Shown here in pieces: positions 7,042 through 24,729 of a stretch of DNA of 64,000 bases; the first letter of the stretch is position 1, and each line of letters starts with the position of its first letter. The notes below the pieces were generated by a model that worked only from the letters and a program-made list of their open reading frames with translations, made no database searches and was not told the DNA's origin. Position numbers and translations under genes: made by a program. Origin of the DNA: Candidatus Woesebacteria bacterium (GTDB lineage: Bacteria > Patescibacteriota > Microgenomatia > UBA1400 > UBA12028); the NCBI GenBank assembly GCA_018060955.1, contig JAGOVC010000001.1, forward strand, positions 5,558 to 69,557, written 5' to 3'.

Positions 7042-8136
7042 ATGAAAACTGTAGGTCTTTATTCACCCTATATTCCAAAGCACGCTGGTGGTGGAGAGCG
7101 CTATTTGTTGAGTATTGCCGAAGTATGCAGTCAGTATCACTCAACATATCTTCTTGTACCGGCAGATCTTGTAGTGGAAACACAACGAGCCCTACCTCGA
7201 TACTCAAAAATGTTTGGGTTGGATTTATCTGCAGTCAAAGTGAAGGCAAGCCTCATTGGAATTTCTAAATCTCCCATCACCACAGTAAAAGAAACGCAGG
7301 CCTTCCATTACCTTTTTGCCATGACAGACGGTAGTATCTTCCCCACACTTTGTCGTAATTCCTATCTAATCATGCAAGTTCCATGGAAGCGTCCATTAAA
7401 GGTCACGGAACGCGCAAAATTAATCTCGTGGAAAAAAATACTCGTGTATTCGGACTTCGTTGCAAAAGTGCTATCTCAAAGTTGGCATGTACGGAAGCTG
7501 GAAGTTCTTGCCCCCTACGTGGATCATAAAGATTTTGTTGCTGGGAAGAAAGAAAAGCTTATTGTGACAACCGGTCGCTTTTTTGCCCATTCTCAAAGTA
7601 ACAGTAAGCATCAAGATGTGCTGATCCAAGCATTTATAAAATGGATCGATCAAGATCATCCGAAGGGCTGGCATTTTGCAGTCGTGGGTAATGTTGATCC
7701 AAACCCTGATAGTCATGACTACGTCTCGAAATTAAAAGAGCTTTCAAGAGGGTATCCAATTAGTTTGCATCTCAATGTTTCTTTTGATGAACTACGCGCC
7801 TTTTATGCTCGAGCGCAGTTTTATTGGCATGCTGCAGGATTTAACGTTGACGAAAAGAAGCATCCTGAGAACACGGAGCACTTTGGGATCACTACTGTTG
7901 AAGCAATGGCCAGCGGGGCAATACCGATCGTAGTTCCCAAAGGAGGTCAAGTCGAAGTCGTTGGAGATCCGCAGCTGTACTGGAACTCTCCTCAAGAATT
8001 AGTGGATGCAATGCGAAAGCTAGTAAAGCAGTCGTCTGCACAACGCGACGATTTGCTAGAGAAGTTGCTACTACAATCTAAACGGTATTCAAAAGAGAAC
8101 TTTGAGCGATCCCTAAAAAAGTTACTGAATCTATGA
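7042..8136 (+). CDS. GT4-family (GT-B fold) glycosyltransferase.
   Basis: C-terminal EHFGITTVEAMASGAIPIV nucleotide-sugar-binding motif. It is a paralog of the gene at 61074. Confidence 0.8.
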   Translation: MKTVGLYSPYIPKHAGGGERYLLSIAEVCSQYHSTYLLVPADLVVETQRALPRYSKMFGLDLSAVKVKASLIGISKSPITTVKETQAFHYLFAMTDGSIFPTLCRNSYLIMQVPWKRPLKVTERAKLISWKKILVYSDFVAKVLSQSWHVRKLEVLAPYVDHKDFVAGKKEKLIVTTGRFFAHSQSNSKHQDVLIQAFIKWIDQDHPKGWHFAVVGNVDPNPDSHDYVSKLKELSRGYPISLHLNVSFDELRAFYARAQFYWHAAGFNVDEKKHPENTEHFGITTVEAMASGAIPIVVPKGGQVEVVGDPQLYWNSPQELVDAMRKLVKQSSAQRDDLLEKLLLQSKRYSKENFERSLKKLLNL

Positions 8137-9059
8137 CACACGTTTCCGTTATTATCCCTAGTTACAACGGTAGGCAACTTCTGGAAAAAAATCTGCCTGC
8201 GGTGATAGATGCTATTCAAGAGAATGATGAAATTGTCATTGTTGATGATGCAAGTTCAGACGACACGCTCGCATGGATGCAACAACAGTTTTCAGTGGTC
8301 TCTCAAGAAAGTAGTGTTAAGGAAACCTTGCTGTACACTAGCAAATTTAAAAACAGGTTGATAAAAGTGTTGATCAATCAATCTAATCAGCGTTTTGCCA
8401 TTTCTTGCAATCGAGGGGTGTCTATTGCTAACTATCCCATTCTTCTTTTGCTAAATAATGACGTCGTCCCAGAATCAGACTTTCTACGCCCTCTTCTGGA
8501 GCATTTTAAATCTCCAGAAGTCTTTGCTGTGGGTTGTAAAGAGATAGCGACTGCGGAAGGAAATAAAGCCTATGGACGGGCAGGGGGCAGCTTCCAGAGA
8601 GGCTTCCTAGTTCATTTTAGAGAACCAAACCAAGATGAACGCACCACACTTTGGGCAGCAGGTGGGAGTGCCGTATTTCGAAAATCAATGTGGGATGAGT
8701 TACACGGCTTTGATCCTGACTACCGACCAGCATACTGGGAAGATATTGATTTATCTTGGAGAGCAATCCAGCAAGGTTGGAAGATACTCTTTGAACCACT
8801 CTCAGTGGTGCATCACAATCATGAGTCCACAAATGCTTCAGTCTTTGGAAAACAACAGATGGAGGTAATGGCATATAAAAATTCCATTTTGTTTATGTGG
8901 AAAAATGCACGTGGACTTGATTTGGTCTCCCATCTGCTGTGGTTACCGTATCACATCATTTTTACTTCACTGCGATCGCACGGTCGCTTTCTACAAGGAT
9001 TGTGGATGGCCTGTAAAACCGTGTTTGGTCATCGCTTAACCAACACGAGTAGGGTATAA
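8133..9059 (+). CDS. Family 2 glycosyltransferase, rhamnosyltransferase-like; paralog set B.
   Basis: VSVIIPSYNG...IVIVDDASSDDT, LLLNNDVVP and AYWEDIDLSWR. The start has an ATGA overlap with the upstream stop. Confidence 0.8.
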   Translation: MTHVSVIIPSYNGRQLLEKNLPAVIDAIQENDEIVIVDDASSDDTLAWMQQQFSVVSQESSVKETLLYTSKFKNRLIKVLINQSNQRFAISCNRGVSIANYPILLLLNNDVVPESDFLRPLLEHFKSPEVFAVGCKEIATAEGNKAYGRAGGSFQRGFLVHFREPNQDERTTLWAAGGSAVFRKSMWDELHGFDPDYRPAYWEDIDLSWRAIQQGWKILFEPLSVVHHNHESTNASVFGKQQMEVMAYKNSILFMWKNARGLDLVSHLLWLPYHIIFTSLRSHGRFLQGLWMACKTVFGHRLTNTSRV

Positions 9060-9076: not shown

Positions 9077-9544
9077 ATGCTCAAGCAAGATCCTACTATT
9101 CCCTTTACAAAGGAAGCCCATGAACAACTTGTCAAAGAGTTACATCGGTTAACGATCGAGCTCGAGGCGGTAAAAGAGCGTGTTCGAGTCGCTCGTGAAA
9201 TGGGAGACCTGTCGGAGAATGGGGCCTATCACTATGGGAAGTTCGAGTTGGGATCCATTTCTCGACAACTGCGTCAGATTCAGTATCAGTTAAAACATGG
9301 ATACATCTTATCTACGACCATGAGTGACAAGGTCAGAGTGGGAAATGTCGTCACGATCTCACAAGCTGGGGTGACCGTTGACTATCGAATCGTGAGTGCC
9401 TACGAAGCTGATCCTCGAAAAGGAAAAATTTCTCAGGAGAGTCCGATTGGCCAGGCGCTGTTGGGCAAGAAAGTAGGCGACACGATTACGATCATGCTTC
9501 CTGCTGGAGAAAAAACCTACAGTGTTGAAAAAATCACCGTGTAG
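9077..9544 (+). CDS. greA: Transcription elongation factor GreA.
   Basis: 155 aa. The N-terminal coiled-coil region (PFTKEAHEQLVKELHRLT...REMGDLSENGAYHYGK) and the C-terminal FKBP-like domain (PIGQALLGKKVGDTITI) are typical of GreA. Confidence 0.85.
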   Translation: MLKQDPTIPFTKEAHEQLVKELHRLTIELEAVKERVRVAREMGDLSENGAYHYGKFELGSISRQLRQIQYQLKHGYILSTTMSDKVRVGNVVTISQAGVTVDYRIVSAYEADPRKGKISQESPIGQALLGKKVGDTITIMLPAGEKTYSVEKITV

Positions 9545-9593: not shown

Positions 9594-10196
9594 TTACAGA
9601 GCTAACCGTTTTTCAACTTCTGCCCAATTAATGACGTTAAAGAATGCCTTGATATACTCTGGTCGGCGATTTTGATACTTTAGATAATACGCGTGTTCCC
9701 AGACATCAATTCCCAATATAGGTGTACTTCCTTCCATATACGGCGAATCCTGATTTGCATAGGACTTAATAGCGAGTGTTCCGGAGGATGTTTTCACAAC
9801 CCATGCCCAGCCCGAGCCAAAATGGTTCGTCGCCGCAGTGGTGAACGTTTCAATGAAGTTTTCCCAACTGGTAAATGCTTCTGCAAATGCAGACTGTACT
9901 GCTTCACTAGGTTGACTACTTTCTGGTGATAACAGTTGCCAGAAGATGGAGTGGTTACTATGTCCACCTCCATGGTTTTTCACTGCGGTAGCAATGGACT
10001 CGGGTACTTGAGAAATGTTTTTTAATAACTCTTCTACAGTGTCAAATTGTACCGTTGGCTCCGATGCGAGGGCAGCGTTTAGCTTATCTACATAGGTTTG
10101 GTGATGCTTTGAATGGTGAATCTGCATCGTTTGCGCATCAATATGCGGTTCGAGTGACTCGATTGCATAGGGAAGTGGGGGTAGAGTAACAGTCAT
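9594..10196 (-). CDS. sodA: Fe/Mn-family superoxide dismutase with Mn-type signatures.
   Basis: PPLPYAIESLEPHIDAQTMQIHHSKHH, HGGGHSNHSIFW, FGSGWAWVV, ANQDSP and DVWEHAYYL. The GGGHxNH and NQD motifs favour the Mn type. A strong GGAGG sits 5 nt upstream of the ATG at 10196, so the ORF-track start at 10208 is probably an over-extension. Confidence 0.85.
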   Translation of the reverse strand: MTVTLPPLPYAIESLEPHIDAQTMQIHHSKHHQTYVDKLNAALASEPTVQFDTVEELLKNISQVPESIATAVKNHGGGHSNHSIFWQLLSPESSQPSEAVQSAFAEAFTSWENFIETFTTAATNHFGSGWAWVVKTSSGTLAIKSYANQDSPYMEGSTPILGIDVWEHAYYLKYQNRRPEYIKAFFNVINWAEVEKRLAL

Positions 10197-10201
10197 AGTG
10201 G

Positions 10202-10206
10202 CCTCC
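10202..10206 (-). promoter_or_regulatory. Shine-Dalgarno GGAGG for sodA.
   Basis: The minus strand reads AGTTGGAGGCCACTATG. Confidence 0.55.
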
Positions 10207-10284
10207 AACTAGTTCAGGTGAACCAATAGTCACGTTTTTAGCTGGAAATGTCAAGTGCAGGGAACGCAAGAAAGGTGTAAATGT

Positions 10285-10328: not shown

Positions 10329-11867
10329 GTGAAAACTACTGTAGCTTTTATCCTCATTTTGCTGATCGCGGGAGTGTTGCGACTATATCAGTTAGGCGTG
10401 TTCCCAAATGGACTAACATGGGATGAAGCGGCGATTGGCTATAACGCGTTTGGAATTGCAACCGTGCATAGAGATGAATGGTTACATCGAATGCCCATAG
10501 TCTTTCGTTCCTTTGGAGATTACAAATCACCTCTACTTATTTATGCAACATCGGTCATATTTCTATTGTTCAGTCCCACGGCATTTCTGATTCGATTACC
10601 AGTCGCACTCAGTGGGATAGGATTAGTTGTCGTTTCGTTCTTTCTCACACGAACTCTGTTGCGACGTTTTGGTGGGATTACAGAGTACAAGAAGTTACAG
10701 TTTTTAAGCTTGACGTCGATGCTCTTCGTGGCTGTTTCTCCGTGGGCAATTCATTTTTCCCGTATCGGTTTTGAATCGATGCTGGCAGCTTTTCTAGTGG
10801 CGTTGGGATGTCTAGCCTGGCTGTATGCAAAAACGAAACCGTATTATTGGATCGTCGGGTCTCTATCCTTTGCCTTATCGTTATATGCATACCATAGTGC
10901 GAAAGTTGTGGTTCCGTTATTTGTGGTTGTGTTGATTGCGGTGCTATTCAAAGATATCTTGAACTCTATTCGCTGGTTCTTGATGTCTGGTGTTATCGCT
11001 GGATGCATCTTACTTCCACTCGGTTATGCCTCATTTTTTGGAAAGGCAAATGATCGAGCCCTCAGTACAACCATCGTAGGAAAACCAGATGCAATGACGG
11101 GGTTCCTATCGCATTTGAAGGTGCAATATTCGCCATCCTATCTGGTTTTTGGTAATGACATCACCTACCGACATAGTACAAAAGAAGTCGGGGTACTGTA
11201 CCCAATCGAACTCGGGTTAATGCTGATCGGGGTTGGTAGTATTTTATTGCTTAAAGAATATAAAAAATTATGGTGGGTTCCAACTCTATTTGCTATCTCG
11301 GTCCTACCCGCTGCAATAGGTTTGGATGTTCCTCATGCAAATAGGGCAATTCTTGGTTTACCTTGGGCCCAAATATTAGCCGTGATTGGCTGTTCCAGTT
11401 TACTTTCTCAATTTAAACACCCAGTAACATCTCTGCGAAAAATTTCAGTTCCCATATTGATCGGAACTGCAATCATTACTATTTCTCTTCTATCGTGCGC
11501 TCGGTATTTGCAAATCTATGCCCGCACCTACTCATCCTCTATTGCTCTAAGTGAGTTTGGGTATGGATATAAAGAATTAATGGAATTTGTCCGGGCTAAA
11601 GAGTCAACAGTGGACAAAGTGTATTTCACCAACGCGTATGGGCAAGCATATATCTATCTCTTACTTTTTAAACAACTCGATCCAATTTCATATCGACAGG
11701 GAGCATTGGCAAACTACTCGATTTCCTCTACACCATTTGTAGACGCGCAAGGACAGAAAAAGGTGCTAGTCGTTGGTACTCCAAAAGATTTTCCACCAGG
11801 TGCAAACATCATCAAAGAGATTACCTATCCAGATGGCACAGCTGCGTTTCAAGTTGTGCAGCAATAA
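10329..11867 (+). CDS. GT39/GT83-type (ArnT/PMT-like) GT-C membrane glycosyltransferase; paralog 1 of a trio.
   Basis: GTG start. LRLYQLGVFPNGLTWDEAAIGYNAFGI has the aspartate-glutamate motif after TM1. There are about 11 TM segments and a C-terminal periplasmic domain (YGYKELMEFV...). Confidence 0.8.
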   Translation: MKTTVAFILILLIAGVLRLYQLGVFPNGLTWDEAAIGYNAFGIATVHRDEWLHRMPIVFRSFGDYKSPLLIYATSVIFLLFSPTAFLIRLPVALSGIGLVVVSFFLTRTLLRRFGGITEYKKLQFLSLTSMLFVAVSPWAIHFSRIGFESMLAAFLVALGCLAWLYAKTKPYYWIVGSLSFALSLYAYHSAKVVVPLFVVVLIAVLFKDILNSIRWFLMSGVIAGCILLPLGYASFFGKANDRALSTTIVGKPDAMTGFLSHLKVQYSPSYLVFGNDITYRHSTKEVGVLYPIELGLMLIGVGSILLLKEYKKLWWVPTLFAISVLPAAIGLDVPHANRAILGLPWAQILAVIGCSSLLSQFKHPVTSLRKISVPILIGTAIITISLLSCARYLQIYARTYSSSIALSEFGYGYKELMEFVRAKESTVDKVYFTNAYGQAYIYLLLFKQLDPISYRQGALANYSISSTPFVDAQGQKKVLVVGTPKDFPPGANIIKEITYPDGTAAFQVVQQ

Positions 11868-11871
11868 CTCT

Positions 11872-12099
11872 ATGTCAGCAGTACAAGTTGGAGGGATCTA
11901 TCGACATTACAAAGGCAAGCTGTATTATGTGTTAGCGCTTGCGACTCATACCGAGACGATGGAACGACTCGTGGTTTATGTGCCACTCAATGAGCCAAAA
12001 ACTGCAAGAGCTTGGGTGCGTCCGGAAACGATGTTTGTTGAAAATCTTCACATAGATGGAAAAGTAGTTCCACGTTTTTCTTATGAAAACAGCAGATGA
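11872..12099 (+). CDS. DUF1653-family small protein.
   Basis: GGIYRHYKGKLYYVLALATHTETMERLVVYVPL matches the DUF1653 core from memory. The ORF-track start at 11773 overlaps the upstream gene. The ATG at 11872 follows the upstream TAA directly. Confidence 0.6.
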   Translation: MSAVQVGGIYRHYKGKLYYVLALATHTETMERLVVYVPLNEPKTARAWVRPETMFVENLHIDGKVVPRFSYENSR

Positions 12100-12739
12100 T
12101 CCTTCCATTTTTCAACAATTTGCTAATCAAAGCGGCAAACAACTGGATGACTTTATCGCAAAAGATGTCAAGGTGTATGATTTTGCAGTTGAGCCTCCCT
12201 TTATTACTGTGGTTGGGAGACTCGATGCGTCTAGTGTTGGGAAAATTAAAGCGGTTCAGGAGCAGCTTGAATCTGCTGACCCAAATCAATTCTATTACCC
12301 GGTCTCCCTCTATCATTTGACCATATTGGGGCGGATTCCTTCAACTCTTGACCAAGCAACCTTATTTTCGACGCTCGATGAAGTGTTACGAGAGAAAATG
12401 ACTTTTCATCTAGAAGGAGTGGCAACCAATCAACTTACTTCTTCGGTTTCAGCCTACCCTCAAGATTTTTCGCTCTATCAACTTCGACAGTCAATTCGAC
12501 GGCAATTATCCATTGAGGGAGATGATTACGCAAAACATCTTGCCCCATACGAATATATGGGTTGGGTAAATTTGCTACGGTATCTCCAAGTACCAACCCA
12601 GTCCTTTATTGATACACTGAAAGCATATCGAACAACTGACTTTGGCACCCTGAAGATCTCCACCATTGAGGTGTATCTTCTCCAAAAAAGGATACTCGAT
12701 CCAGCATTCTCGACGTGTATACACACGATTCAATTATGA
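12083..12739 (+). CDS. Hypothetical protein with a possible degenerate 2H-phosphoesterase-like H-x-T-x motif.
   Basis: 218 aa soluble protein with a single HLTI motif and no second clear H-x-[ST] motif. Coding periodicity and tight packing support a real gene. Confidence 0.55.
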   Translation: MKTADDPSIFQQFANQSGKQLDDFIAKDVKVYDFAVEPPFITVVGRLDASSVGKIKAVQEQLESADPNQFYYPVSLYHLTILGRIPSTLDQATLFSTLDEVLREKMTFHLEGVATNQLTSSVSAYPQDFSLYQLRQSIRRQLSIEGDDYAKHLAPYEYMGWVNLLRYLQVPTQSFIDTLKAYRTTDFGTLKISTIEVYLLQKRILDPAFSTCIHTIQL

Positions 12740-14409
12740 AACGACTATCCATCACAACCCTACTACTTTTTATCATTCTCGGTATGTCGTCATTCCTACG
12801 GTTGTATAAATTGGATTCCATTCCGCCATCGTTGTATTGGGAAGAAGCGGCACTGGGTTACGATGCGTATTCGATTGCAAAAACTGGAAAAGATCATCAT
12901 GGGAATCCATTTCCTATTGTTGCATTCCCATCCTTTGGAGATTACAAACCGAGCGGATACTTTTATGCAATTGTTCCGTTCGTTTTTACCTTGGGGCTTA
13001 ATGTTTGGAGTGTGAGACTTCCTTCAGCTCTTGCAGGAATTGCAAGTGTATTGCTTGTGTACTTAATTTGCAAAGAACTTTTCAATTCAAAGTCAGCCTT
13101 GCTTGCGGCATTCTTGTTTGGAATTCAACCGTGGGCGATTCAATTCTCGCGAGGAGGATGGGAGGTAAACCTAGCACTCACTGTTATCTTGGCTGGTGCT
13201 TATTTCTTACTGAAATCCAGAAGAAAAGTAGAGTATATGATTCTCGCAGCGATTTGTTTGGGACTTTCAATGTATATCTACCATGCTGCTCGACTATTTG
13301 CTCCCATCATCGGAATGCTTGGAGGCTTATGGATCCTTCATGGATTCTGGGTGAAGAAGACGCTGAAGCAAAACTTACTTCCAGTGATTATTTCCTTAGT
13401 TGCTGCAATTCTTTTAGTAAGTCCATTTGTCTTACACCTGAATGATTCAGCAGTGTCCTCTAGGTTTTCGCAGACATCAATCTTTTCCGATATTCTCCCA
13501 ATTCAGAAGAGTAATGCCGCTATTCAAGCCGCTGGAAACACCGTCGTTTCCAGATTAACCTTTCATCGCTACCGCTTTTTTGCAGAAGTGATTATTCAAC
13601 AACTCTTCTCACATTTTTCGTTACCCTTTTTATTTTTCCGTGGGGATGGAAATTTACGTCACGGTACAGGGAATGGGGGATTACTTTATCCTATCGAAAG
13701 TGTTGGAATCGGAATTGCGTTATTGATTGGGATTGTCTATGAAGCAAAAAAGCTTCGCGTGCAATTACCACAACTTGTACTCAAAGTACTTGATAGTCGC
13801 GACTACGGTGCAGCCATTTGGGTTGTGGTGCTCTGGATTATTATTGCTGCCGTTGCCCCAGCGTTGGTAACACCGGCGCCGCATGCGTTACGTTTTTTGT
13901 TTGCTGCACCTGCATTTGCAGTCCTTTCAAGCATTGGTATTCTTCATCTTGTGGGTAAGCTTTCGAAAAACATGCAGAAGCTGGTTCTGCTTTTGTTAGT
14001 GGGAGGATACTTTTTCTTTGCTGCACGTTTTCTGAGTTGGTCGATCCTCGCCTACCCAGTGACGAGTGCAAATGACTGGCAATTTGGATACAAAGAACTG
14101 TTTTCCACTTTAGATAAACAGAAGAACGAAGGGGAGAAGGTTTTTGTCAGTAGGTATCAGGGAAGACCATCCATGTACTATCTGTTCTTTTCAAAATTTG
14201 ATCCTTCTTCACTTCAACAAATAGAACCCACCCTTTCCAAAGATCAATTAGAGTTACTTAATGTCGGTGACTATTATTTTATCGATGGAGTGGGAAACAG
14301 CCCTGGGCTTTACGCTACAAGTCCAGATGCAGTTCCACCCCAAGCACAGGTCAAAGCTTTCATTCGGCGTCCCGATACAACGACTGTATGGGTTATTTGG
14401 AGGCAGTAG
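12736..14409 (+). CDS. GT39/GT83-type GT-C membrane glycosyltransferase; paralog 2.
   Basis: LRLYKLDSIPPSLYWEEAALGYDAYSI, and a C-terminal domain (FGYKELFSTL...) like that of 10329. The ATG at 12736 forms an ATGA overlap with the upstream stop. Confidence 0.8.
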   Translation: MKRLSITTLLLFIILGMSSFLRLYKLDSIPPSLYWEEAALGYDAYSIAKTGKDHHGNPFPIVAFPSFGDYKPSGYFYAIVPFVFTLGLNVWSVRLPSALAGIASVLLVYLICKELFNSKSALLAAFLFGIQPWAIQFSRGGWEVNLALTVILAGAYFLLKSRRKVEYMILAAICLGLSMYIYHAARLFAPIIGMLGGLWILHGFWVKKTLKQNLLPVIISLVAAILLVSPFVLHLNDSAVSSRFSQTSIFSDILPIQKSNAAIQAAGNTVVSRLTFHRYRFFAEVIIQQLFSHFSLPFLFFRGDGNLRHGTGNGGLLYPIESVGIGIALLIGIVYEAKKLRVQLPQLVLKVLDSRDYGAAIWVVVLWIIIAAVAPALVTPAPHALRFLFAAPAFAVLSSIGILHLVGKLSKNMQKLVLLLLVGGYFFFAARFLSWSILAYPVTSANDWQFGYKELFSTLDKQKNEGEKVFVSRYQGRPSMYYLFFSKFDPSSLQQIEPTLSKDQLELLNVGDYYFIDGVGNSPGLYATSPDAVPPQAQVKAFIRRPDTTTVWVIWRQ

Positions 14410-14413
14410 TGAT

Positions 14414-14872
14414 ATGAAAAAGATCTCCCGCAAGATTGTTGCGGCATTGATACTGAGTACAGACCACAAACTATTAATGGTCAAAAAGAATCCGGCACAT
14501 GGGGGAGTGTATTTGAATACTTGGCATATCCCTGGTGGGGGAGTTGAACCGAATGAATCATTACCAGAAGCAATTGTTCGAGAAATTTTTGAAGAGACGG
14601 GACTGGTGTATCCAGTAACGGACGTTGTACTTGTGGATGATAAAGGAAGTAATGCTGCAACTAAAACCTTACCCTCTGGAGAGACCGTCTGGTGTGAAAT
14701 GCAGTTTTGGGTGTATGCAGTACAATTAACTCAAAGTGCGAGTGACATTGTTGTCCGGTTAAGCGAAGAGCATACAGAATATGTTTGGGCGGATGTAACA
14801 AAAATATATGACTATGAGCTGACCCCACCAAGCGTGGAATTATTTAAACGAGTGAACATCTCTAAACTATGA
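14414..14872 (+). CDS. NUDIX hydrolase.
   Basis: Nudix box GGGVEPNESLPEAIVREIFEETGL. Starting at the ATG at 14414, just after the upstream stop, gives about 152 aa, a typical Nudix size. The ORF-track extension to 14261 overlaps the upstream gene. Confidence 0.8.
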   Translation: MKKISRKIVAALILSTDHKLLMVKKNPAHGGVYLNTWHIPGGGVEPNESLPEAIVREIFEETGLVYPVTDVVLVDDKGSNAATKTLPSGETVWCEMQFWVYAVQLTQSASDIVVRLSEEHTEYVWADVTKIYDYELTPPSVELFKRVNISKL

Positions 14873-15768
14873 AGAAACGAGTACGCCTATCGGTAGTCAT
14901 TGCAACTCATAACGAGGAAGAAAACTTACCGCTATCATTACCGCCCTTAGTGGGTTTTGCCGATGAGATTTTAATTGCTGATGGGGAGAGCACCGACAAC
15001 ACCGTCAAGATTGCAAAAAGTTTTGGGGCTACCGTTATCCCAATGACCAACAAACGGATGTTTCATCATAACAAGCAGGCTGCAGGAGATCAGGCTAGCG
15101 GAGAATGGATACTGTATCTAGACGCAGATGAGATCGTTACCGATGCATTAAAAGAAGAAATCCTACAGATTCTAGATGGGAACCATCCTTCCTTACAAGG
15201 AGTTGCGACTGCTGACTATTTACCCACGACGGTTCGAAAAGCGTACCTTGCTCATCTTCATAATCTAGAAGTACGTGATCAGAAAAAGTTTCAAACCTCA
15301 CAACGGATCACTGCATACTTCATTGCCCGCAAGAATTGGTTTTTGGGCGCATATTTGATGCATGCTGGTGTATTTCCTGACGGAGTAATCCGATTAGTAA
15401 AAAAGGGAACAGCAGTGTGGCCATGCAAAGATGTGCATGAGACGATGGATGTGCAGGGAGGAGTTGGCTGGCTCATTGAACCCATGTTGCATCAAGCTGA
15501 TCCAACTTTTTCTCGGTATTTGATGCGTGCAAATCGTTACACGAATCTGACTGCAGATCAACTGACCTCTATGCATGTTCCGATTAGTTTTTCTTCGTGG
15601 ATCTACTACCTAATTTGGAAGCCTCTCAAAATATTTGTCCTACTTTTCTTTCGGCACAAAGGTTTCAAGGATGGTTTTAGTGGGTTCGTGTGGGCACTGA
15701 TGAGCGGACTTCACTGGCCGATCGCCTTTTTAAAATATGTAGAGTCTTCATATACACGAGGGCATTAA
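14869..15768 (+). CDS. Family 2 glycosyltransferase; paralog set A.
   Basis: LSVVIATHNEEENL...ILIADGESTDNT...HKGFKDGFSGFVWALMSG. ATGA overlap with the Nudix gene stop. Confidence 0.8.
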   Translation: MKKRVRLSVVIATHNEEENLPLSLPPLVGFADEILIADGESTDNTVKIAKSFGATVIPMTNKRMFHHNKQAAGDQASGEWILYLDADEIVTDALKEEILQILDGNHPSLQGVATADYLPTTVRKAYLAHLHNLEVRDQKKFQTSQRITAYFIARKNWFLGAYLMHAGVFPDGVIRLVKKGTAVWPCKDVHETMDVQGGVGWLIEPMLHQADPTFSRYLMRANRYTNLTADQLTSMHVPISFSSWIYYLIWKPLKIFVLLFFRHKGFKDGFSGFVWALMSGLHWPIAFLKYVESSYTRGH

Positions 15769-17489
15769 CGTACCGGAACTGGCGATGGAACAGGACTTGC
15801 TAGTGTATAGACTCTAAAAGAATCTGTAGAATTTACCCTCTTAATTGTTGCGACACTTTCTAGTGGACCGGTCGTTGAACATTCACCACGATCCACAAGT
15901 AGTGAGTGTGGTGTCATCTGACTGAGGATTTCTTCGGAGGGACAATTGTTTTTTGTAAAGTGAACATTTCCATACTCCGTCAAGCGAATATTCTTTTGGA
16001 ACTGACCTGCAAGGGATGCATCAAAGGTGTTGGAGTAGAACAAATAATAGAGAGGTTTAGCATCCTGTGGTAAATAGATTTGATCAAAACGATCCTTATT
16101 CTCTATTACATAACGGGCTAGTGCAGTCCGATCATCCCCTCGATGTGCAGTTTGTGAGGAGGGGGAGTGAACGATCCATTGATGCCAGAAATACACACTT
16201 TCTATTCCTACCAGAACCAACAGCAACGTGCGAAACGGAATGCCTTTCCAACCAATAGTTGAGATTTTTGCATAGGCATACGTTGTGAGAAGAACGAAGA
16301 ATACTGACATTGTGACAGTCCGATGAACATTGGGAACATCATCAAGTGTCAGAGAGCTAGGGATTGGAGAAATTGCAAAAAGCAGCAATAAGAAAAGAAA
16401 GGTTTTGGACTCTGTTGACCAATTCAGTTTCGATTTTTGCAGATTTGGAAGGAACGTTACGGAGAGGAAGGCTATCACGATAATGATTAAGTAGGAGTAG
16501 TAGAGTAACCCACTGTCATCTAAGCGATATCTTCCTGGTAATCCCCCTTCAGAGAAGAGCATTGGAAACGAAAAATATGACACGTATTGGTGTAAAAATT
16601 CACGACTGTAACCAACAATCTTATTATGAAAGATTCGAGCGCTGAGTACGTTCATTTGTCCTTCTCCAACTGCTAGTCCATCCAATCGCCCTTGAACAGT
16701 GTGGTTGAAATAGAAGATAGAGGTTTGTTGGAATCTCCCTTGTCCCCAATAGGTTCTTGAAATCGCAAAAGTGGTTATGAAGAAACACAAGGCAATCAGT
16801 GATAGTGTCAGTCGTTGCCTTTTATCTGCACCAAAGAAAATACTTAAAAAGACGGTAAGTGGAGTAACGATTCGATAGCCTGGGTAGAGCACGTATGTTA
16901 GCGCCAGGAAAAGTACCGCAAGAAGGATCGCGTAGGTCGAAGGTTTTTTCTCGTGTATCCACTTTAATAAAAAGTAGACTCCAGTAAAGTACACAGTGGT
17001 TGCCAAAATGTTTTCCGCTGTAGATCGAGATAAGATGATATGCCAGGGTGTAATTGCGATCAGAGTTGCGGCTAAAAGCGAGATTTTTGAATCTTTAAAA
17101 ATGTACTGAGCTATTCGATAGACAGGAAATACGATAACCGCACCGATGAGTGCAATTGGGAATCGAACAGCGAAGGCAGAAACTCCAAAAATGAACGTAA
17201 AAAAACCAGAGATATACATTGGAATTACATTTGGGTAGTCTCCAAAGTTATCAAAAAAGAGCAGAGGCCATTTGTTTGCGTAGAGGTCTTTACCATTAAG
17301 TAAGATAAATCTGCCGACATACCCATTCATCATTTCATCTTCATGGAGGCCAAATGGGACCTGTTCTAAATGAAAGAGCCGAAGGAAAAGTGCAAGTGCA
17401 AAAATCAGAAACAGATGGAGAGCTGGGGATCGCCATAACGGCAGATGTAAAAATTTCATATGTAAGAATACTTTTATTGTACACGGCAT
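15765..17489 (-). CDS. GT39/GT83-type GT-C membrane glycosyltransferase; paralog 3.
   Basis: HLEQVPFGLHEDEMMNGYVGRF and FDNFGDYPN. There are many TM segments and a C-terminal soluble domain. The stop overlaps the convergent GT2 stop by 4 nt. An alternative start lies at 17459. Confidence 0.8.
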   Translation of the reverse strand: MPCTIKVFLHMKFLHLPLWRSPALHLFLIFALALFLRLFHLEQVPFGLHEDEMMNGYVGRFILLNGKDLYANKWPLLFFDNFGDYPNVIPMYISGFFTFIFGVSAFAVRFPIALIGAVIVFPVYRIAQYIFKDSKISLLAATLIAITPWHIILSRSTAENILATTVYFTGVYFLLKWIHEKKPSTYAILLAVLFLALTYVLYPGYRIVTPLTVFLSIFFGADKRQRLTLSLIALCFFITTFAISRTYWGQGRFQQTSIFYFNHTVQGRLDGLAVGEGQMNVLSARIFHNKIVGYSREFLHQYVSYFSFPMLFSEGGLPGRYRLDDSGLLYYSYLIIIVIAFLSVTFLPNLQKSKLNWSTESKTFLFLLLLFAISPIPSSLTLDDVPNVHRTVTMSVFFVLLTTYAYAKISTIGWKGIPFRTLLLVLVGIESVYFWHQWIVHSPSSQTAHRGDDRTALARYVIENKDRFDQIYLPQDAKPLYYLFYSNTFDASLAGQFQKNIRLTEYGNVHFTKNNCPSEEILSQMTPHSLLVDRGECSTTGPLESVATIKRVNSTDSFRVYTLASPVPSPVPVR

Positions 17490-17521: not shown

Positions 17522-18589
17522 ATGGTGAGTAGAGTACAGTCAATGAACATTCTCATCGATACCACTCCACTCTCAAACGGTAGCGCCATTCGAGGAATCG
17601 GTCGATATACCGCCGAACTCCTACGAGCTCTCATTAACAATCCTGCATCACATCGAATTTACACCCCGGACACAGTGGAGAATCAGGGGGTAGACATTGT
17701 TCACTATCCTTTCTTTGATCTGTTTTTCCCAACTCTGCCGATCGGCAAACGAGCCAGAACGATTGTAACTATTCATGATGTAATCCCATTGTTATTTCCC
17801 AAGCACTATCCAAGAGGAATTAAAGGAACGCTTAATTTCTGGAAACAAAAGTTTGCCCTTCGATCCGTTTCTCATATCATCACCGATTCGGAAAGCTCAA
17901 AGCGGGATATTGTGGATCATCTCCATGTGCGATCCGATAAGATCTCTGTGGTGTATCTGGCAGCATCTCCAGATATCAAAAAACCTTCTCAAGGCATTTT
18001 GGACTCTGTGCGAAAGAAATACAGTCTTCCTCGGAATTTTGCCCTGTTTGTAGGTGATATCAATTACAATAAAAATTTGCCGTTTTTACTCAATGTCATT
18101 TCAAAAATTCCCAAACTCACCCTCGTTCTCGTCGGGAGAGCCATGAATAATCAAGCAATACCTGAAGGAAAAGCAATTCACCATACGATAGCAAAACTTG
18201 GATTAGAGAAACGGGTACTGATAATAGATACCCTTGGAGGGGATTCCGTTGAAGAGTTATCGAGTATCTATTCATTGGCAAGTTTTTACATTCAACCATC
18301 CCTCTATGAAGGATTTGGGTTACCAATCTTAGAGGCGATGCAGTGTAAGACACCCATAGTTTGTTCTCGTGCTGGTAGTTTACCTGAAGTTGCAGGTGAA
18401 GCGGCCGTCTATTTCCATCCAATGGAAGTAGATGATTGTCGACAAGCGATAGAGAAGGTACTGCGGTATTCAGACAAACAGTTACAGTCGATGGTAAAAA
18501 AAGGAGTTGAACAAGCAGCACGGTTCTCTTGGGAGAAGACAGCCAAAGAAACGATAAAGGTATATGAAAAGGTTGGTAGTTCTGTTTGA
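17522..18589 (+). CDS. GT4-family glycosyltransferase.
   Basis: EGFGLPILEAMQCKTPIVCSRAGSLPEVAG. The ORF-track start at 17354 overlaps the convergent minus-strand gene. The ATG at 17522 (or 17543) resolves this. Confidence 0.8.
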   Translation: MVSRVQSMNILIDTTPLSNGSAIRGIGRYTAELLRALINNPASHRIYTPDTVENQGVDIVHYPFFDLFFPTLPIGKRARTIVTIHDVIPLLFPKHYPRGIKGTLNFWKQKFALRSVSHIITDSESSKRDIVDHLHVRSDKISVVYLAASPDIKKPSQGILDSVRKKYSLPRNFALFVGDINYNKNLPFLLNVISKIPKLTLVLVGRAMNNQAIPEGKAIHHTIAKLGLEKRVLIIDTLGGDSVEELSSIYSLASFYIQPSLYEGFGLPILEAMQCKTPIVCSRAGSLPEVAGEAAVYFHPMEVDDCRQAIEKVLRYSDKQLQSMVKKGVEQAARFSWEKTAKETIKVYEKVGSSV

Positions 18590-20646
18590 TGTTTCAATGG
18601 TTGTACAATAGTTCTATGTTTGGACTTTCTGATCCCAGTCTCTGGCTCTGGGGACTCTTGTACTTTATCTCCGTACTCATTGTGTTTATCGTCCCTGGAT
18701 GGTTACTTTTAGAGAGACTTGATCTGAGGCTCTCTGCTTGGCAGAACATTGTGGTAATCCCTGTCACCGGAATGATCCTGTGGGGTATTCAAGGCTACAT
18801 CTTTGGATATGCGCACTTGCGATTCTTAACATATGCCTATGTTGCAGTAACTCTGTTGGCAGTACTTATTCGTCACAGAGACATAAAGAAAGGATTTAGT
18901 TTTTTGTTGCGAGGCATTCGACGCATGGATTGGAAGCTAGGTATTCTCCTATTAAGTGGAACACTTATCCAAGTAATGCAAATGATAGGAAGCGGAGTTA
19001 CAGATAAAGCAGGAATGCACTTTTATCGAGTGCATGGCCAAGATGGCATTTTCCATTTAGGACTCATTTCGAGTATTGTCCGACAATTCCCACCGATTGA
19101 ACCTGGTTCAGCTCACACCTCAGTAGTTAATTACCATTACTGGTCAGATTTAATCCTTGCGGAACAGGCGCGGATTTTTAACATTCCGATTCATCATTTG
19201 TTTTTTCAATTTACGCCAATTCTAATTTCATTGTTAACTGGTCTGACTTTAATCGTCTTGTTAGCGACAGTATCGCAAGATCAGCCGCGAAGTTTTCGGA
19301 AAAACCTGGTTAACTTCGGATTGTTTTTCCTCTACTTTGGTTCCGACCTAGCGTATCTTTTTATGCAGTGGCTTCATCAAACTTGGGGTTTTTATACCTC
19401 GGCTATAGATAATGGTGCGACCCAGTTTCTAAACATGCCGCATGCAATGGCTAAATTAGTCTTCTTGATACTCTTTCTCTTACTAGTTGTGTGGAGAAGA
19501 ACGAAAGGTTGGAAACTTGGACTGCTGATAGCAGTCCTTGGTGGCGTGCTGTTCGGAATTAAAGTGTATTTCGGACTATTATTTGCAGTGGGGTTCTTGC
19601 TTGTTTGGCTTACTGATCTCGTGGATCTAATCGTGAAGATATATTTGAAGATCAATGTTCAATCTCTTGTGTCGAAAAAATCATTCTTGCTGCAGGCATT
19701 CTTGATTGGCTGTGTGATGTTGGTTATTTCATTATTCGTATACTTACCTCCCAATCGAGGATCTGGAGGGCTAGGATATTACCCATTGGAATGGCCGAAA
19801 CTATTCATGGCTGAAGAAAATTTAGATTGGAGAGACTGGCGATACAAACGAGCCATCGTTGAATACTTTAAAAATACGCCAAAGATTATGATGTACGATG
19901 GAATTGCGATCGTCGTGACACTACTTTGTATCCATGGAACTCGATTATTGGGTTTCAATTTGGGAAAGAAAACACGTAGTCTGTTAGGAAGGAAACTGTT
20001 AGTTGGATTTATTCTTATTCCTTGTGGACTCTTTACCTTCTTGGGTCTTTATACCTTGCAGAAAAGTGGATCCTTTAACGTGTTTAATTTCTTTGCATCG
20101 AGTTTGACACTACTCTCTATTACTGCCGCGATTTTACTTGCAGAGTGGTGGTCATCAAAATCCTACATCCTCAAAGGAGTTACTATCGTTATTATCCTTG
20201 CCACCATCCCTAGAATTGCGTATGAGTCATTTAAAATTGTAACCTCCTATCAAAATCAAACGGATGATACGGTCATTTCCAGAGAGGAGATAGATGCATT
20301 GTCCTTTATTAATAGGACAGCAAACAAGGATGCGATCATTCAGTCGCATTATGCGAATACCTTGGATATGAACACCCCGTATACTTCCTATTTTGCGAAC
20401 CGATTTAATTACATGGCTGGCCAAAAGGTGCTAGAGACACACGCTCAGGAGACTCAATCAAGATATCTTGAAGTTCAACGACTGTTCGGATCTCATAACC
20501 CCGCTGACTACAGGGAAGCTTTCGCGCGCTGGAATATTTCCTATTTGTATTTACGGAATCAGGATGCGCTCCCATTTGATCCGTCTCTTGCTAACCTCAC
20601 ACTGGTATATCAGAATACGGAAGCTAAAGTGTATCAAATCAGGTGA
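18589..20646 (+). CDS. Large polytopic membrane protein with a C-terminal extracytoplasmic domain; function unknown. A GT-C-like transferase, polymerase or ligase are all possible.
   Basis: About 685 aa with at least 12 hydrophobic segments. The start ATG overlaps the upstream TGA (TGATG). Confidence 0.75.
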   Translation: MFQWLYNSSMFGLSDPSLWLWGLLYFISVLIVFIVPGWLLLERLDLRLSAWQNIVVIPVTGMILWGIQGYIFGYAHLRFLTYAYVAVTLLAVLIRHRDIKKGFSFLLRGIRRMDWKLGILLLSGTLIQVMQMIGSGVTDKAGMHFYRVHGQDGIFHLGLISSIVRQFPPIEPGSAHTSVVNYHYWSDLILAEQARIFNIPIHHLFFQFTPILISLLTGLTLIVLLATVSQDQPRSFRKNLVNFGLFFLYFGSDLAYLFMQWLHQTWGFYTSAIDNGATQFLNMPHAMAKLVFLILFLLLVVWRRTKGWKLGLLIAVLGGVLFGIKVYFGLLFAVGFLLVWLTDLVDLIVKIYLKINVQSLVSKKSFLLQAFLIGCVMLVISLFVYLPPNRGSGGLGYYPLEWPKLFMAEENLDWRDWRYKRAIVEYFKNTPKIMMYDGIAIVVTLLCIHGTRLLGFNLGKKTRSLLGRKLLVGFILIPCGLFTFLGLYTLQKSGSFNVFNFFASSLTLLSITAAILLAEWWSSKSYILKGVTIVIILATIPRIAYESFKIVTSYQNQTDDTVISREEIDALSFINRTANKDAIIQSHYANTLDMNTPYTSYFANRFNYMAGQKVLETHAQETQSRYLEVQRLFGSHNPADYREAFARWNISYLYLRNQDALPFDPSLANLTLVYQNTEAKVYQIR

Positions 20647-23737: not shown

Positions 23738-24394
23738 ATGAACGTCTTTATCATCATTCCCGGCCATAACGAGCAAGAGTATGTGTCGACAGTGCTTTCT
23801 AAAGTGAAAGCCATTCATTCTCAGGTTATTTTTGTCGATGACGGTTCAACGGACAACACTGCAGAACTAGCAAAAGCCCACACAAAACACGTACTTAGTC
23901 ATGAAACAAACCTCGGTAAAGGTGCCGCTTTAAAAACTGGGTGTGAGTACGCATTTTCTACCCTCAATGCAGATGCCGTTATTTTCATGGATGCAGACGA
24001 TCAACACGATCCTAAAGAAATTCCAAAATTTATCGCTCAGCTTGAAAACTTCGATGTGGTTTTTGGTGTTCGAAAAATGGGTGCAAATATGCCGTTATCG
24101 CGGTTTTTAGGGAATAAATTCGCTTCAGTGTTACTCAACGTGCTATATGGTGGGTATATACCAGATATTCCCTCAGGGTATAAAGCACTGACAAGTAAAG
24201 GGTACCGAAAAGTAAAATGGAAGTCATCTGGCTATGAAGTCGAAACAGAAATTGCGATGCGAGTGACAAAGGAGCATGTTCCTTACGCCGTAATTGAAAT
24301 TGAAGCGATTTATCACGATACCGATAAGGGGATGACGCTCATCGATGGAATACATATCTGTCGCTGTTTGCTAGAATGGAAAGTAGGATTATGA
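23738..24394 (+). CDS. Short GT2 polyprenyl-phosphate sugar synthase-like enzyme (DPM1/GtrB-like catalytic domain with no long C-terminal TM region).
   Basis: VFIIIPGHNEQEYV...VIFVDDGSTDNT...LGKGAALKTGCEYAF...MDADDQHDP. Confidence 0.75.
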   Translation: MNVFIIIPGHNEQEYVSTVLSKVKAIHSQVIFVDDGSTDNTAELAKAHTKHVLSHETNLGKGAALKTGCEYAFSTLNADAVIFMDADDQHDPKEIPKFIAQLENFDVVFGVRKMGANMPLSRFLGNKFASVLLNVLYGGYIPDIPSGYKALTSKGYRKVKWKSSGYEVETEIAMRVTKEHVPYAVIEIEAIYHDTDKGMTLIDGIHICRCLLEWKVGL

Positions 24395-24729
24395 GATTAC
24401 TTCAGATTGTTTCAGTATTGTTTGGTCTATTCATGATGTATACCGTGCGTATTCATCATCGAAAACAGCATATTGATAGCATGGAATATGGGATTTGGAT
24501 GGGACTTTGGGGAGTTTTTATTTTCTTGGCAATCTTCCCACAAACGGTGAATGGTGTCGTTCAAACTCTCAACATTGCGAGGGTATTTGATCTCCTTGTT
24601 ATTATTTCCTTGATGATCGTAGTATTTCTTACGTTTCTCAATCGAATTGAGCAAAAGCGAATGGATAAAAAAATAGAGCAGCTGGTTCGAAAGAAAGCTA
24701 TCGATGACACTAAAAAAGCCGCTGTTTAG
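24391..24729 (+). CDS. DUF2304-like small membrane protein, often partnered with DPM1-like GT2 enzymes.
   Basis: About 112 aa with three hydrophobic segments and a basic C-terminal tail (KRMDKKIEQLVRKKAIDDTKKAAV). Starting at the ATG at 24391 gives an ATGA overlap. The ORF-track start is 24376. Confidence 0.6.
   Translation: MRLLQIVSVLFGLFMMYTVRIHHRKQHIDSMEYGIWMGLWGVFIFLAIFPQTVNGVVQTLNIARVFDLLVIISLMIVVFLTFLNRIEQKRMDKKIEQLVRKKAIDDTKKAAV

What the first reader, a model, noticed from the sequence alone, without database searches (positions are those of the whole stretch)
10329..17489. A trio of GT39/83 (ArnT/PMT-like) paralogs shares a distinctive C-terminal domain and is interleaved with small non-GT genes.
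The genes at 10329-11867, 12736-14409 and 15765-17489 (minus strand) all carry the early WDE/WEE/HEDE acidic motif after TM1, typical of the ArnT/PMT catalytic loop. All three also share a C-terminal periplasmic domain beginning (F/Y)GYKEL. Between them sit a DUF1653 protein, a 218-aa hypothetical, a Nudix hydrolase and a GT2. The DNA sequences are clearly diverged, so this is an ancient local paralog expansion and not a recent duplication. Different acceptor or donor specificities are likely.
Basis: seen in the sequence. Interest (0 to 1): 0.55.

Follow-up and report, generated by a model that had tools for sequence, protein, structure and literature searches.

The report
Conserved GT-C glycosyltransferase paralog trio
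Three anciently duplicated membrane sugar-transferases in a Candidatus Woesebacteria genome share a small, previously undescribed outer-face tail domain, and they belong to a gene array common in these tiny bacteria that probably decorates the cell surface – real and tidy, but an ordinary kind of system.

Summary
The three ORFs are 10329-11867 (+), 12736-14409 (+) and 15765-17459 (-). All are GT-C-fold glycosyltransferases and are each other's closest relatives in the window. All keep a conserved (D/E)E doublet just after TM1.

Their ~115-aa C-terminal domains are homologous. BLASTP shows this only for G1-G2. Profile comparison shows it for all three pairs (E 1e-21, 2e-11, 5e-7). The "(F/Y)GYKEL" motif occurs only in G1 and G2.

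The duplication is ancient. Each paralog has orthologs at ~50% identity in other Patescibacteria, and 40 of 51 related loci carry three or more such genes.

DUF1653 and Nudix are absent from this position in the Woesebacteria-like relatives examined; the 218-aa gene has an ortholog there in one. The interleaved GT2 is a conserved partner. An upstream GT2 (8133-9059) is repeatedly fused to G1-type genes elsewhere. A GacI/GacJ-like lipid-phosphate-sugar synthase pair lies 6 kb downstream of the third gene.

Best reading: three non-redundant enzymes that use polyprenyl-phosphate sugars on a surface glycan. Donor and acceptor are untested. G2 and G3 are already annotated as GT39 in GenBank. This is a new member of a known kind; interest is modest.

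The parts
10329..11867 (+). G1: GT-C glycosyltransferase paralog, 512 aa. GenBank MBP9699659.1, annotated 'hypothetical protein'.
   Evidence: No Pfam hit at E<=0.01. The G2-family HMM matches it at E 1e-93 and the G3-family HMM at E 8e-36. 120/120 of its homologs classify to their own clade.
10419..10427 (+). G1 acidic motif W31-D32-E33, just after TM1.
   Evidence: At least 95% conserved in the G1 family. Aligns with E36-E37 of G2 and D41-E42 of G3.
11532..11864 (+). G1 C-terminal alpha/beta domain (aa 402-512), containing YGYKEL.
   Evidence: hhalign against the G2 C-domain: probability 99.4%, E 1e-21. Against the G3 C-domain: 92.6%, E 5e-7. No Pfam family even at E<=10.
11872..12099 (+). 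DUF1653 protein (75 aa). A lineage-specific insertion, not part of the conserved array.
   Evidence: Pfam PF07866, E 3e-23. Absent from this position in L001-L003. Present elsewhere in the cluster in L004.
12083..12739 (+). 218-aa soluble protein of unknown family. Found between G1 and G2 in some relatives only.
   Evidence: No Pfam or NCBIfam hit. An ortholog sits at the same position in L001 (32% identity, E 2e-44). It is absent in L002 and L003.
12736..14409 (+). G2: GT-C glycosyltransferase paralog, 557 aa. GenBank MBP9699662.1, annotated 'glycosyltransferase family 39 protein'.
12838..12846 (+). G2 acidic motif W35-E36-E37.
   Evidence: W35 and E37 are invariant and E36 is at least 90% conserved in 55 orthologs. 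Aligned with the G1 and G3 motifs.
14053..14406 (+). G2 C-terminal alpha/beta domain (aa 440-557), containing FGYKEL.
14414..14872 (+). Nudix hydrolase (152 aa). A lineage-specific insertion.
   Evidence: Pfam PF00293, E 1e-16. Absent at this position in L001-L005.
14869..15768 (+). GT2 ('GT2mid', 299 aa) with a hydrophobic C-terminal tail. A conserved neighbour of the GT-C array.
   Evidence: Pfam PF00535, E 5e-18. 49% identical to the GT2 that follows the array in Pacebacteria locus L004. An ortholog is present in 34 of 51 related loci.
15765..17459 (-). G3: GT-C glycosyltransferase paralog, 564 aa from M11. The longest ORF reaches 17489. GenBank MBP9699665.1, annotated 'glycosyltransferase family 39 protein'.
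   Evidence: Pfam PMT_2 at 41.4 bits. The G2-family HMM matches aa 24-560 of the ORF at E 5e-66. Start inferred from orthologs and GenBank.
17334..17345 (-). G3 acidic motif H-E-D41-E42.
   Evidence: D41 and E42 are at least 95% conserved in the G3 family.
15768..16169 (-). G3 C-terminal domain (aa 431-564). Lacks GYKEL and has two family-conserved cysteines (C506, C527).
   Evidence: hhalign against the G2 C-domain: 97.3%, E 2e-11. The cysteines are at least 95% conserved.
8133..9059 (+). GT2 ('GT2up', 308 aa). The most constant partner of the array, fused to G1-type genes in other genomes.
   Evidence: P0305 is this GT2 (39% identity, E 6e-62) followed by a G1-type enzyme (36%, E 3e-85). An ortholog lies within 9 kb in 45 of 51 loci. 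Five loci have fused ORFs of 803-847 aa.
23738..24394 (+). GacI/PpgS/ArnC-like GT2 (218 aa). Candidate polyprenyl-phosphate-sugar synthase, i.e. donor supply.
   Evidence: NCBIfam AglJ 1e-28 and PpgS 5e-28, both below curated cut-offs. PDB sequence matches: ArnC 6e-12, dolichol-P-mannose synthase 9e-12 over the full length, and GtrB (sll0501) 2.5e-5.
24376..24729 (+). DUF2304 small membrane protein (GacJ/Rv3632-like), directly after the GacI-like GT2.
   Evidence: Pfam PF10066, E 1e-17. GacJ stimulates GacI and Rv3632 stimulates PpgS (paper 10.1101/180810).
17573..18589 (+). GT4 glycosyltransferase, divergent from G3. A conserved neighbour; the start codon is approximate.
   Evidence: Pfam Glycos_transf_1, E 9e-25. 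Same position in L001-L003. An ortholog is present in 32 of 51 loci.

Best explanation
G1, G2 and G3 are three non-redundant GT-C-fold membrane glycosyltransferases. They belong to a Patescibacteria-specific subfamily of the Pfam PMT_2 group.

Proposed steps:
1. A cytoplasmic GT2 loads a sugar onto polyprenyl phosphate. The best candidate is the GacI/GacJ-like pair at 23738-24729. The GT2 at 8133-9059, which is fused to G1-type genes elsewhere, is an alternative or additional partner.
2. The lipid-linked sugar is flipped across the membrane. Two Wzx/MOP-type flippases are encoded in the window.
3. Each paralog uses its conserved (D/E)E-containing first outer loop to transfer the sugar to an acceptor on the outer face of the membrane.
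4. The acceptor is most likely a surface glycopolymer built by the surrounding 64-kb glycosylation cluster.
5. The shared ~115-aa C-terminal alpha/beta domain sits on the outer face. Together with the long outer loop, it provides the acceptor-side surface that differs between paralogs.

Shown: homology, fold, conservation, synteny and gene fusions. Inferred: donor, acceptor, topology of the C-domain, and division of labour among the three.
For: Fold:
- The G2 AF2 model (pLDDT 93.6) matches only GT-C enzymes at high Z: ALG12 21.9, ArnT 21.4, STT3B 18.2, Pmt4 18.0, PglB 16.6.
- Pfam PMT_2 is above threshold for G2 and G3.

Shared catalytic features conserved at >=90% in all three families:
- the (D/E)E doublet after TM1
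- a second Asp (D49/D53/D58)
- the FGD motif
- R89/R94/R99
- an SR..E motif, a Y..K/R motif, and a P(H/N)..R motif
None of the three therefore looks like a dead enzyme.

Family-specific conserved residues are concentrated in the long loop after TM8 and in the C-domain.

C-domain:
- Homology is shown by hhalign.
- It is present only in these three genes of the window.
- In every listed hit it lies at the protein's C-terminus; the eight short hits that were read look like N-terminally truncated fragments.
- Four hydrophobic helices separate it from the long conserved loop, which places both on the same side of the membrane.
- The G3 family has a conserved Cys pair in this domain.

Age and retention:
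- Three clades, each with one member per genome.
- The same gene order occurs at about 50% identity in other Woesebacteria-like genomes.
- 40 of 51 species-level loci carry >=3 such genes.

Donor supply:
- The GT2 at 23738-24394 matches ArnC, DPMS, PpgS, AglJ and GtrB, all of which are polyprenyl-phosphate-sugar synthases.
- It is followed by a DUF2304 protein, as in GacI/GacJ and PpgS/Rv3632.

Functional coupling to a GT2: fusions and 45/51 co-occurrence.

Precedent: extracytoplasmic C-terminal domains that bind the acceptor glycan are known in the GT-C enzymes ORF12/GT136, EmbA-C and AftD (PMC11127046).
Against: - There is no biochemical evidence. Neither the sugar, the lipid carrier nor the acceptor is known.
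- The GacI-like pair lies within 9 kb of the array in only 10 of 51 related loci, so it may serve other GT-C genes. The window has at least three more PMT_2 genes.
- The fused GT2 (8133-9059) does not resemble known polyprenyl-phosphate-sugar synthases beyond the generic N-terminal ~50 aa. The meaning of the fusion is therefore open.
- No model coordinates were available, so it could not be checked whether the conserved C-domain residues face the active site.
- TM counting in the N-terminal half was ambiguous.
- The NJ tree has no bootstrap support values.
Confidence: 0.6

Rival explanations
1. The three enzymes are protein O-glycosyltransferases of the PMT type. They would modify secreted or surface proteins such as pilins or S-layer proteins, not a polysaccharide. 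The C-domain would then bind peptide.
Against: PMT_2 scores higher than PMT. G3 is below the PMT threshold and G1 has no hit. No PMT_4TMC or MIR domain is present. The genes sit inside a large cluster of the polysaccharide type, with Wzx flippases, many GT2 and GT4 genes and sugar-modifying enzymes. G1-type genes are fused to a GT2.
Confidence: 0.2
2. The three paralogs are obligate subunits of one hetero-oligomeric enzyme, as in Pmt1-Pmt2 or EmbA-EmbB. They would not be three enzymes with separate specificities. The shared C-domain would then be an assembly interface.
For: They co-occur strictly and keep their order across genomes. Known GT-C enzymes form such dimers: Pmt1-Pmt2 and EmbA-EmbB structures appear among the fold hits.
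Against: Copy number varies from 1 to 5 per locus, which argues against a fixed stoichiometric complex. All three keep a full set of catalytic-loop residues.
Confidence: 0.12
3. They are ArnT-like lipid-modifying enzymes (GT83). They would add a sugar such as an aminoarabinose-type residue to a membrane lipid or lipoglycan anchor.
Confidence: 0.08

Closest known systems
Three-component extracytoplasmic glycosylation systems (GtrA/GtrB/Gtr*; streptococcal GacI/GacJ/GacK/GacL; mycobacterial PpgS/Rv3632/Rv3779)
   Same: A GT-C enzyme is encoded alongside a small GT2 that resembles polyprenyl-phosphate-sugar synthases, plus a DUF2304 helper protein. Wzx-type flippases are nearby, and the whole lies inside a surface-glycan cluster.
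   Different: Here three to five paralogous GT-C genes sit in tandem. They carry a C-terminal domain specific to the family. The synthase pair is 6 kb from the third gene, not adjacent. A different GT2 is the constant, and sometimes fused, neighbour. No function has been demonstrated.
ArnT (GT83), Cupriavidus metallidurans, PDB 5EZM/5F15
   Different: 12% identity. The C-domain shows no detectable similarity to ArnT's periplasmic domain. There is no lipid A pathway context.
Protein O-mannosyltransferases (GT39; Pmt1/2/4)
   Different: No MIR or PMT_4TMC domains. A different C-terminal domain. The genomic context is of the polysaccharide type.
Mycobacterial arabinosyltransferase sets (EmbA/B/C, AftA-D) and GT136 ORF12
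   Same: Several paralogous GT-C enzymes act on one cell-wall glycan. Their C-terminal extracytoplasmic domains bind the acceptor.

Membership tests
GT-C superfamily (fold level) | Polytopic membrane core with the GT-C architecture | tested here: met
GT-C superfamily (fold level) | Conserved acidic residue(s) in the first extracytoplasmic loop, directly after TM1 | tested here: met
   The doublets D32-E33, E36-E37 and D41-E42 align with each other and are >=90% conserved in each family. Their catalytic role was not tested.
GT-C superfamily (fold level) | Uses a polyprenyl-phosphate-linked sugar donor | not testable with these tools
   Context only: a GacI/PpgS/ArnC-like GT2 plus DUF2304 at 23738-24729.
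Pfam PMT_2 (PF13231) | Score above the gathering threshold of 26.1 bits | tested here: met
   G2 scores 44.7 bits and G3 41.4 bits. G1 has no hit at E<=0.01, although many G1 orthologs carry precomputed PF13231 hits.
CAZy GT39 (protein O-mannosyltransferase) | Pfam PMT (PF02366) above threshold, together with the C-terminal PMT_4TMC region (and MIR in eukaryotes) | tested here: not met
   For PF02366, G2 scores 30.5 (above 22.7), G3 scores 19.1 (below), and G1 has none. No PMT_4TMC or MIR hit in any of the three. The C-domains have no Pfam hit even at E<=10.
CAZy GT39 (protein O-mannosyltransferase) | Ser/Thr protein acceptor and Dol/Und-P-mannose donor | not testable with these tools
CAZy GT83 (ArnT) | Significant sequence similarity to ArnT across the enzyme | tested here: inconclusive
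CAZy GT83 (ArnT) | ArnT-type C-terminal periplasmic domain | tested here: not met
Three-component (Gtr/Gac-type) glycosylation system | Polyprenyl-phosphate-sugar synthase GT2 encoded with the GT-C gene | tested here: inconclusive
   A candidate lies 6 kb downstream of G3, but its scores are below NCBIfam equivalog cut-offs. It is within 9 kb of the array in only 10 of 51 related loci.
Three-component (Gtr/Gac-type) glycosylation system | Dedicated flippase (GtrA, Wzx/GacK or SMR type) | tested here: inconclusive
   Two MOP/Wzx-family genes are in the window, at 2750-4252 and 46389-47771. No link to the trio was shown. No GtrA-like gene was looked for among the small ORFs.

The most novel reading that the evidence does not exclude
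The tandem GT-C array, its constant GT2 partner and the new C-terminal domain together form an extracytoplasmic assembly line specific to Patescibacteria. It would build a so-far unknown cell-wall glycopolymer. The recurrent GT2-G1 fusions would then be self-contained bifunctional enzymes: the donor or acceptor is made on the cytoplasmic face and used on the outer face by the same polypeptide. The C-domain would be a new class of acceptor-glycan-binding module.
Probability: 0.12. Interest if true: 0.6.

Novelty: new member of a known kind. Interest (0 to 1): 0.3.

Why it matters
Patescibacteria (CPR) have genomes of roughly 1 Mb and are mostly uncultured, and their cell envelope chemistry is essentially unknown. 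This 64-kb window is almost entirely glycosylation genes.

The GT-C array described here is conserved across Woesebacteria, Pacebacteria, Beckwithbacteria and related groups. That conservation suggests a surface glycan important to their lifestyle on host cells.

The analysis provides three usable things:
- a clean definition of a subfamily: three orthologous clades, a new C-terminal domain of about 1,900 clusters, and a fused GT2 partner
- re-annotation of G1, which is 'hypothetical protein' in GenBank
- concrete candidates for heterologous biochemical tests

It does not reveal a new kind of mechanism.

Tried and rejected
Rejected hypotheses:
- Recent duplication or gene conversion. blastn shows no DNA similarity beyond one 18-nt match, and orthologs separate into old clades.
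- The C-domain as a stand-alone or promiscuous module. Among the 150 listed hits of 1,880, every one places it at the protein's C-terminus. The eight short hits that were read look like N-terminally truncated fragments.
- Other GT-C genes of the window sharing the domain. They do not.

Approaches that fell short:
- BLASTP alone could not decide whether G3 shares the C-domain. Family profiles were needed.
- The afdb50 fold library was not available.
- The mixed C-domain alignment A3 was too diverse for the search for related loci, so the G2 full-length alignment was used instead.
- Profile search of PDB sequences gave only ArnT, so residue-level equivalence of the (D/E)E doublet with the PMT or ArnT catalytic residues could not be shown.
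- Literature searches for Patescibacteria/CPR together with GT-C, GT39 or ArnT found nothing relevant.
- The 218-aa protein gave no family. Its ortholog gave only a sub-threshold 2H-phosphodiesterase hint at E 0.039.
- An E. coli DNA search with the GT2 gene found nothing, as expected.
- TM counting from the model's helices was ambiguous for the first half of the protein.


Full report
**What is at the coordinates.** The region holds three long membrane-protein ORFs:
- G1: 10329-11867 (+), 512 aa
- G2: 12736-14409 (+), 557 aa
- G3: 15765-17489 (-)

Only G3 is on the minus strand. Its start is most likely M11 at nt 17459, giving 564 aa. This matches GenBank and most orthologs.

Between the three lie four smaller genes:
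- DUF1653 (11872-12099)
- a 218-aa protein with no family match (12083-12739)
- a Nudix hydrolase (14414-14872)
- a GT2 (14869-15768)

Exact matches in public data identify the source as a Candidatus Woesebacteria MAG contig of about 71 kb. G1 is MBP9699659.1, annotated 'hypothetical protein KBD71_00075'. G2 and G3 are MBP9699662.1 and MBP9699665.1, both annotated 'glycosyltransferase family 39 protein'.

**Are the three related, and is the motif real?** BLASTP gives:
- G1-G2: 27% identity over the full length, E 1e-42
- G2-G3: 33% over the first 330 aa, E 2e-33
- G1-G3: 32% over 205 aa, E 9e-15

Family HMMs were built from 110-120 homologs of each paralog. They show the three to be each other's closest relatives in the window by a wide margin. 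The next best gene, 52783-54258, reaches only E 1e-10, and only over its N-terminal part.

The acidic motif is present in all three: W31-D32-E33, W35-E36-E37 and H-E-D41-E42. The motifs align with each other. The (D/E)E doublet is at least 90% conserved in every family.

Further positions are conserved in all three families:
- a second Asp (D49/D53/D58)
- the FGD motif
- R89/R94/R99
- an SR..E motif, a Y..(K/R) motif and a P(H/N)..R motif

None of the three therefore looks like a degenerate enzyme.

At the DNA level there is only one in-register 18-nt match, at the SFGDYK codons. The genes are old duplicates.

With BLASTP on the domains alone:
- G1-G2 is significant (E 1e-12)
- G3-G2 is marginal (E 0.043)
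- G3-G1 shows nothing

Profile-profile comparison of the domains alone, cut after the last TM helix, settles the question:

| Pair | Probability | E-value |
|---|---|---|
| G1-G2 | 99.4% | 1e-21 |
| G2-G3 | 97.3% | 2e-11 |
| G1-G3 | 92.6% | 5e-7 |

Each alignment covers about 100 columns in the same order.

C-domain HMMs searched against the six-frame translation of the whole window hit only these three genes. The other PMT_2 genes in the window lack the domain.

The domain has no Pfam family even at E<=10.

A profile of the domain was searched against 1.84 billion representative proteins. It finds 1,880 at E<=1e-3 and 656 at E<=1e-10. Among the 150 listed hits, the full-length ones (about 500-600 aa) carry it at the C-terminus. 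In the shorter ones the domain also ends at the C-terminus, and the eight that were read look like N-terminally truncated fragments.

The domain is thus a genuine, undescribed module confined to this enzyme type.

**What kind of enzyme.** G2 and G3 pass the Pfam PMT_2 threshold. G2 also passes PMT. G1 has no Pfam hit.

The full-length G2 model has pLDDT 93.6. It matches GT-C enzymes only:

Foldseek gives the same set at TM-scores of about 0.5. By sequence, only ArnT is found among solved structures, and only marginally (E 0.014 over 165 aa).

The GT-C assignment is therefore solid. A CAZy GT39 or GT83 assignment is not.

Four hydrophobic helices separate the long conserved loop (aa 234-318 in G2) from the C-domain. 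The domain should therefore lie on the same, outer side of the membrane as that loop. The conserved Cys pair in the G3 family's domain fits an outer location. This topology is inferred, not shown.

**Age and distribution.** Every one of the 360 retrieved homologs has its best match to the paralog that retrieved it. An NJ tree gives three well-separated clades. Each clade contains one gene from the window and one from each of two other Woesebacteria-like genomes. The tree has no bootstrap values.

In those genomes the gene order is the same at about 50% protein identity:

SOD(-) | G1 | G2 | GT2 | G3(-) | GT4 | ~670-aa membrane protein | epimerase | GT2 | DUF2304

DUF1653 and Nudix are absent from this position there. 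The 218-aa gene has an ortholog in one genome (E 2e-44) and none in the other.

In Pacebacteria-type genomes four such genes stand in tandem.

A scan of species-representative genomes found 143 relatives. The loci whose titles name a taxon are almost all Patescibacteria. Titles reading 'uncultured Pseudomonadales' appear to be placeholders. One such contig (291,930 bp) has the same length as the NCBI contig carrying unnamed close homologs of G1, G2 and G3 (P0258, P0021, P0130).

Among the 51 loci with full 9-kb flanks, the number of GT-C genes carrying the C-domain per locus is:

| Genes per locus | Loci |
|---|---|
| 1 | 2 |
| 2 | 9 |
| 3 | 25 |
| 4 | 13 |
| 5 | 2 |

The trio is thus one instance of a widespread tandem array.

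**Partners.**
- *GT2 between G2 and G3.* It is 49% identical to its counterpart in a Pacebacteria locus. That is more conserved than the GT-C genes themselves. An ortholog is present in 34 of 51 loci.
- *GT2 at 8133-9059.* It has an ortholog within 9 kb in 45 of 51 loci. It normally sits directly upstream of the G1-type gene. In five loci, and in eight of the top 120 G1 homologs, it is fused to the G1-type gene as one ORF of 790-847 aa. In this window GreA and SOD have come between the two genes. The fusion argues for functional coupling. This GT2 resembles known polyprenyl-phosphate-sugar synthases only in the generic first ~50 aa, so its role is open.
- *GT2 plus DUF2304, about 6 kb downstream of G3.* The 218-aa GT2 (23738-24394) has as its best matches AglJ, PpgS, ArnC, dolichol-P-mannose synthase and GtrB. 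It is directly followed by a DUF2304 protein (24376-24729). This is the arrangement of GacI/GacJ in Streptococcus pyogenes and PpgS/Rv3632 in M. tuberculosis. In those systems the pair makes a polyprenyl-phosphate sugar that a GT-C enzyme then transfers outside the membrane (10.1101/180810).
- *Flippases.* Two Wzx/MOP flippases are also in the window.

**Most likely mechanism.**
1. A cytoplasmic GT2 charges polyprenyl phosphate with a sugar.
2. The lipid-linked sugar is flipped.
3. G1, G2 and G3 each transfer it to an acceptor on the outer face, using the shared catalytic loop.

Residues conserved across all three families lie in the first outer loop and the membrane core. Family-specific invariant residues lie in the long loop and the C-domain. 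One example is the KDQxELL insert of G2, which is missing in G1 and different in G3. This pattern fits similar chemistry with different acceptors or linkages.

The surrounding cluster favours a surface glycopolymer as acceptor. It contains many GT2 and GT4 genes, epimerases, an aminotransferase, an acetyltransferase and a methyltransferase. Acceptor-binding C-terminal domains are known in other GT-C enzymes (PMC11127046).

Rivals are protein O-glycosylation, a hetero-oligomeric enzyme and lipid modification. They are listed separately with their evidence. Donor, acceptor and division of labour are all untested.

**Verdict.** The system is a previously uncharacterised subfamily of a well-known kind of enzyme, and two of the three genes are already labelled GT39 in GenBank.

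What is new is modest:
- G1 is recognised as a member
- an undescribed C-terminal domain family is defined
- conserved tandem arrays are documented across Patescibacteria
- a recurrent GT2 fusion partner is identified

Noticed in passing
window 1-64000: Almost the whole 64-kb window is glycosylation machinery. It holds at least 14 GT2 and 7 GT4 genes, and 6 genes with Pfam PMT_2 hits. It also holds two Wzx/MOP flippases, four NAD-dependent epimerases/dehydratases, and a DegT aminotransferase. A hexapeptide acetyltransferase, a methyltransferase and an asparagine synthase are present too. For a Patescibacteria genome, typically about 1 Mb from general knowledge, this is a large investment.
   Followed up: partly
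window 26410-27660 (-), 34827-36743 (+), 52783-54258 (-); also 1057-2745, 58407-60092, 21855-23642: There are further GT-C-like genes without the trio's C-domain. Three have Pfam PMT_2 hits. Three more align to the N-terminal ~200 aa of the G2 profile with hhalign probabilities of 31-63%. The ortholog of 1057-2745 in L002 carries a YfhO hit.
   Followed up: partly
window 8133-9059 (+); P0305, P0314, P0320, P0323, P0332, P0343, P0352, P0355; L020, L030, L041, L060, L083: The GT2 at 8133-9059 is fused in frame to a G1-type GT-C in several other genomes, giving ORFs of 790-847 aa. In this window GreA (9077-9544) and a superoxide dismutase (9594-10208, minus strand) have been inserted between the two genes.
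   Followed up: yes
window 15765-17489 (-): A second public gene call for G3 (P0121, 522 aa) starts at M53. That start would remove TM1 and the HEDE motif. The GenBank record MBP9699665.1 uses M11 (564 aa), and the longest ORF is 574 aa.
   Followed up: yes
window 15768-16169 (-): The G3 family's C-domain has two cysteines conserved in at least 95% of orthologs (C506 and C527 in 564-aa numbering). The G1 and G2 families do not have them. A disulfide on the outer face is possible.
   Followed up: no
window 12083-12739 (+): This 218-aa soluble protein has no family. It contains one H-x-T-x motif (YHLTILG), and its L001 ortholog has LHMTIIG. That ortholog gives a sub-threshold 2H-phosphodiesterase hit at E 0.039. 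No second H-x-T motif was seen.
   Followed up: partly
window 18586-20646 (+): This 686-aa polytopic membrane protein has a soluble C-terminal part. It is conserved directly after the GT4 in related loci (652-685 aa). It has no Pfam or NCBIfam hit and no detectable similarity to the GT-C profile.
   Followed up: partly
window 27666-29327 (-): This 553-aa membrane protein matches the NCBIfam LIC_10190 family above its cut-off (103.6 bits against 100). It lies next to a PMT_2 gene.
   Followed up: no
L006, L008, L009 and many others: Many public records carrying close relatives of these genes are titled 'uncultured Pseudomonadales bacterium'. One of these contigs (291,930 bp) has the same length as the NCBI contig carrying close G1, G2 and G3 homologs. 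The titles look like placeholder or wrong taxonomy.
   Followed up: no
window 11872-12099 (+); L004 1557-1769: A DUF1653 gene also occurs inside the corresponding glycosylation cluster of a Pacebacteria genome, but at a different position. The association of DUF1653 with these clusters may be loose but not random.
   Followed up: no
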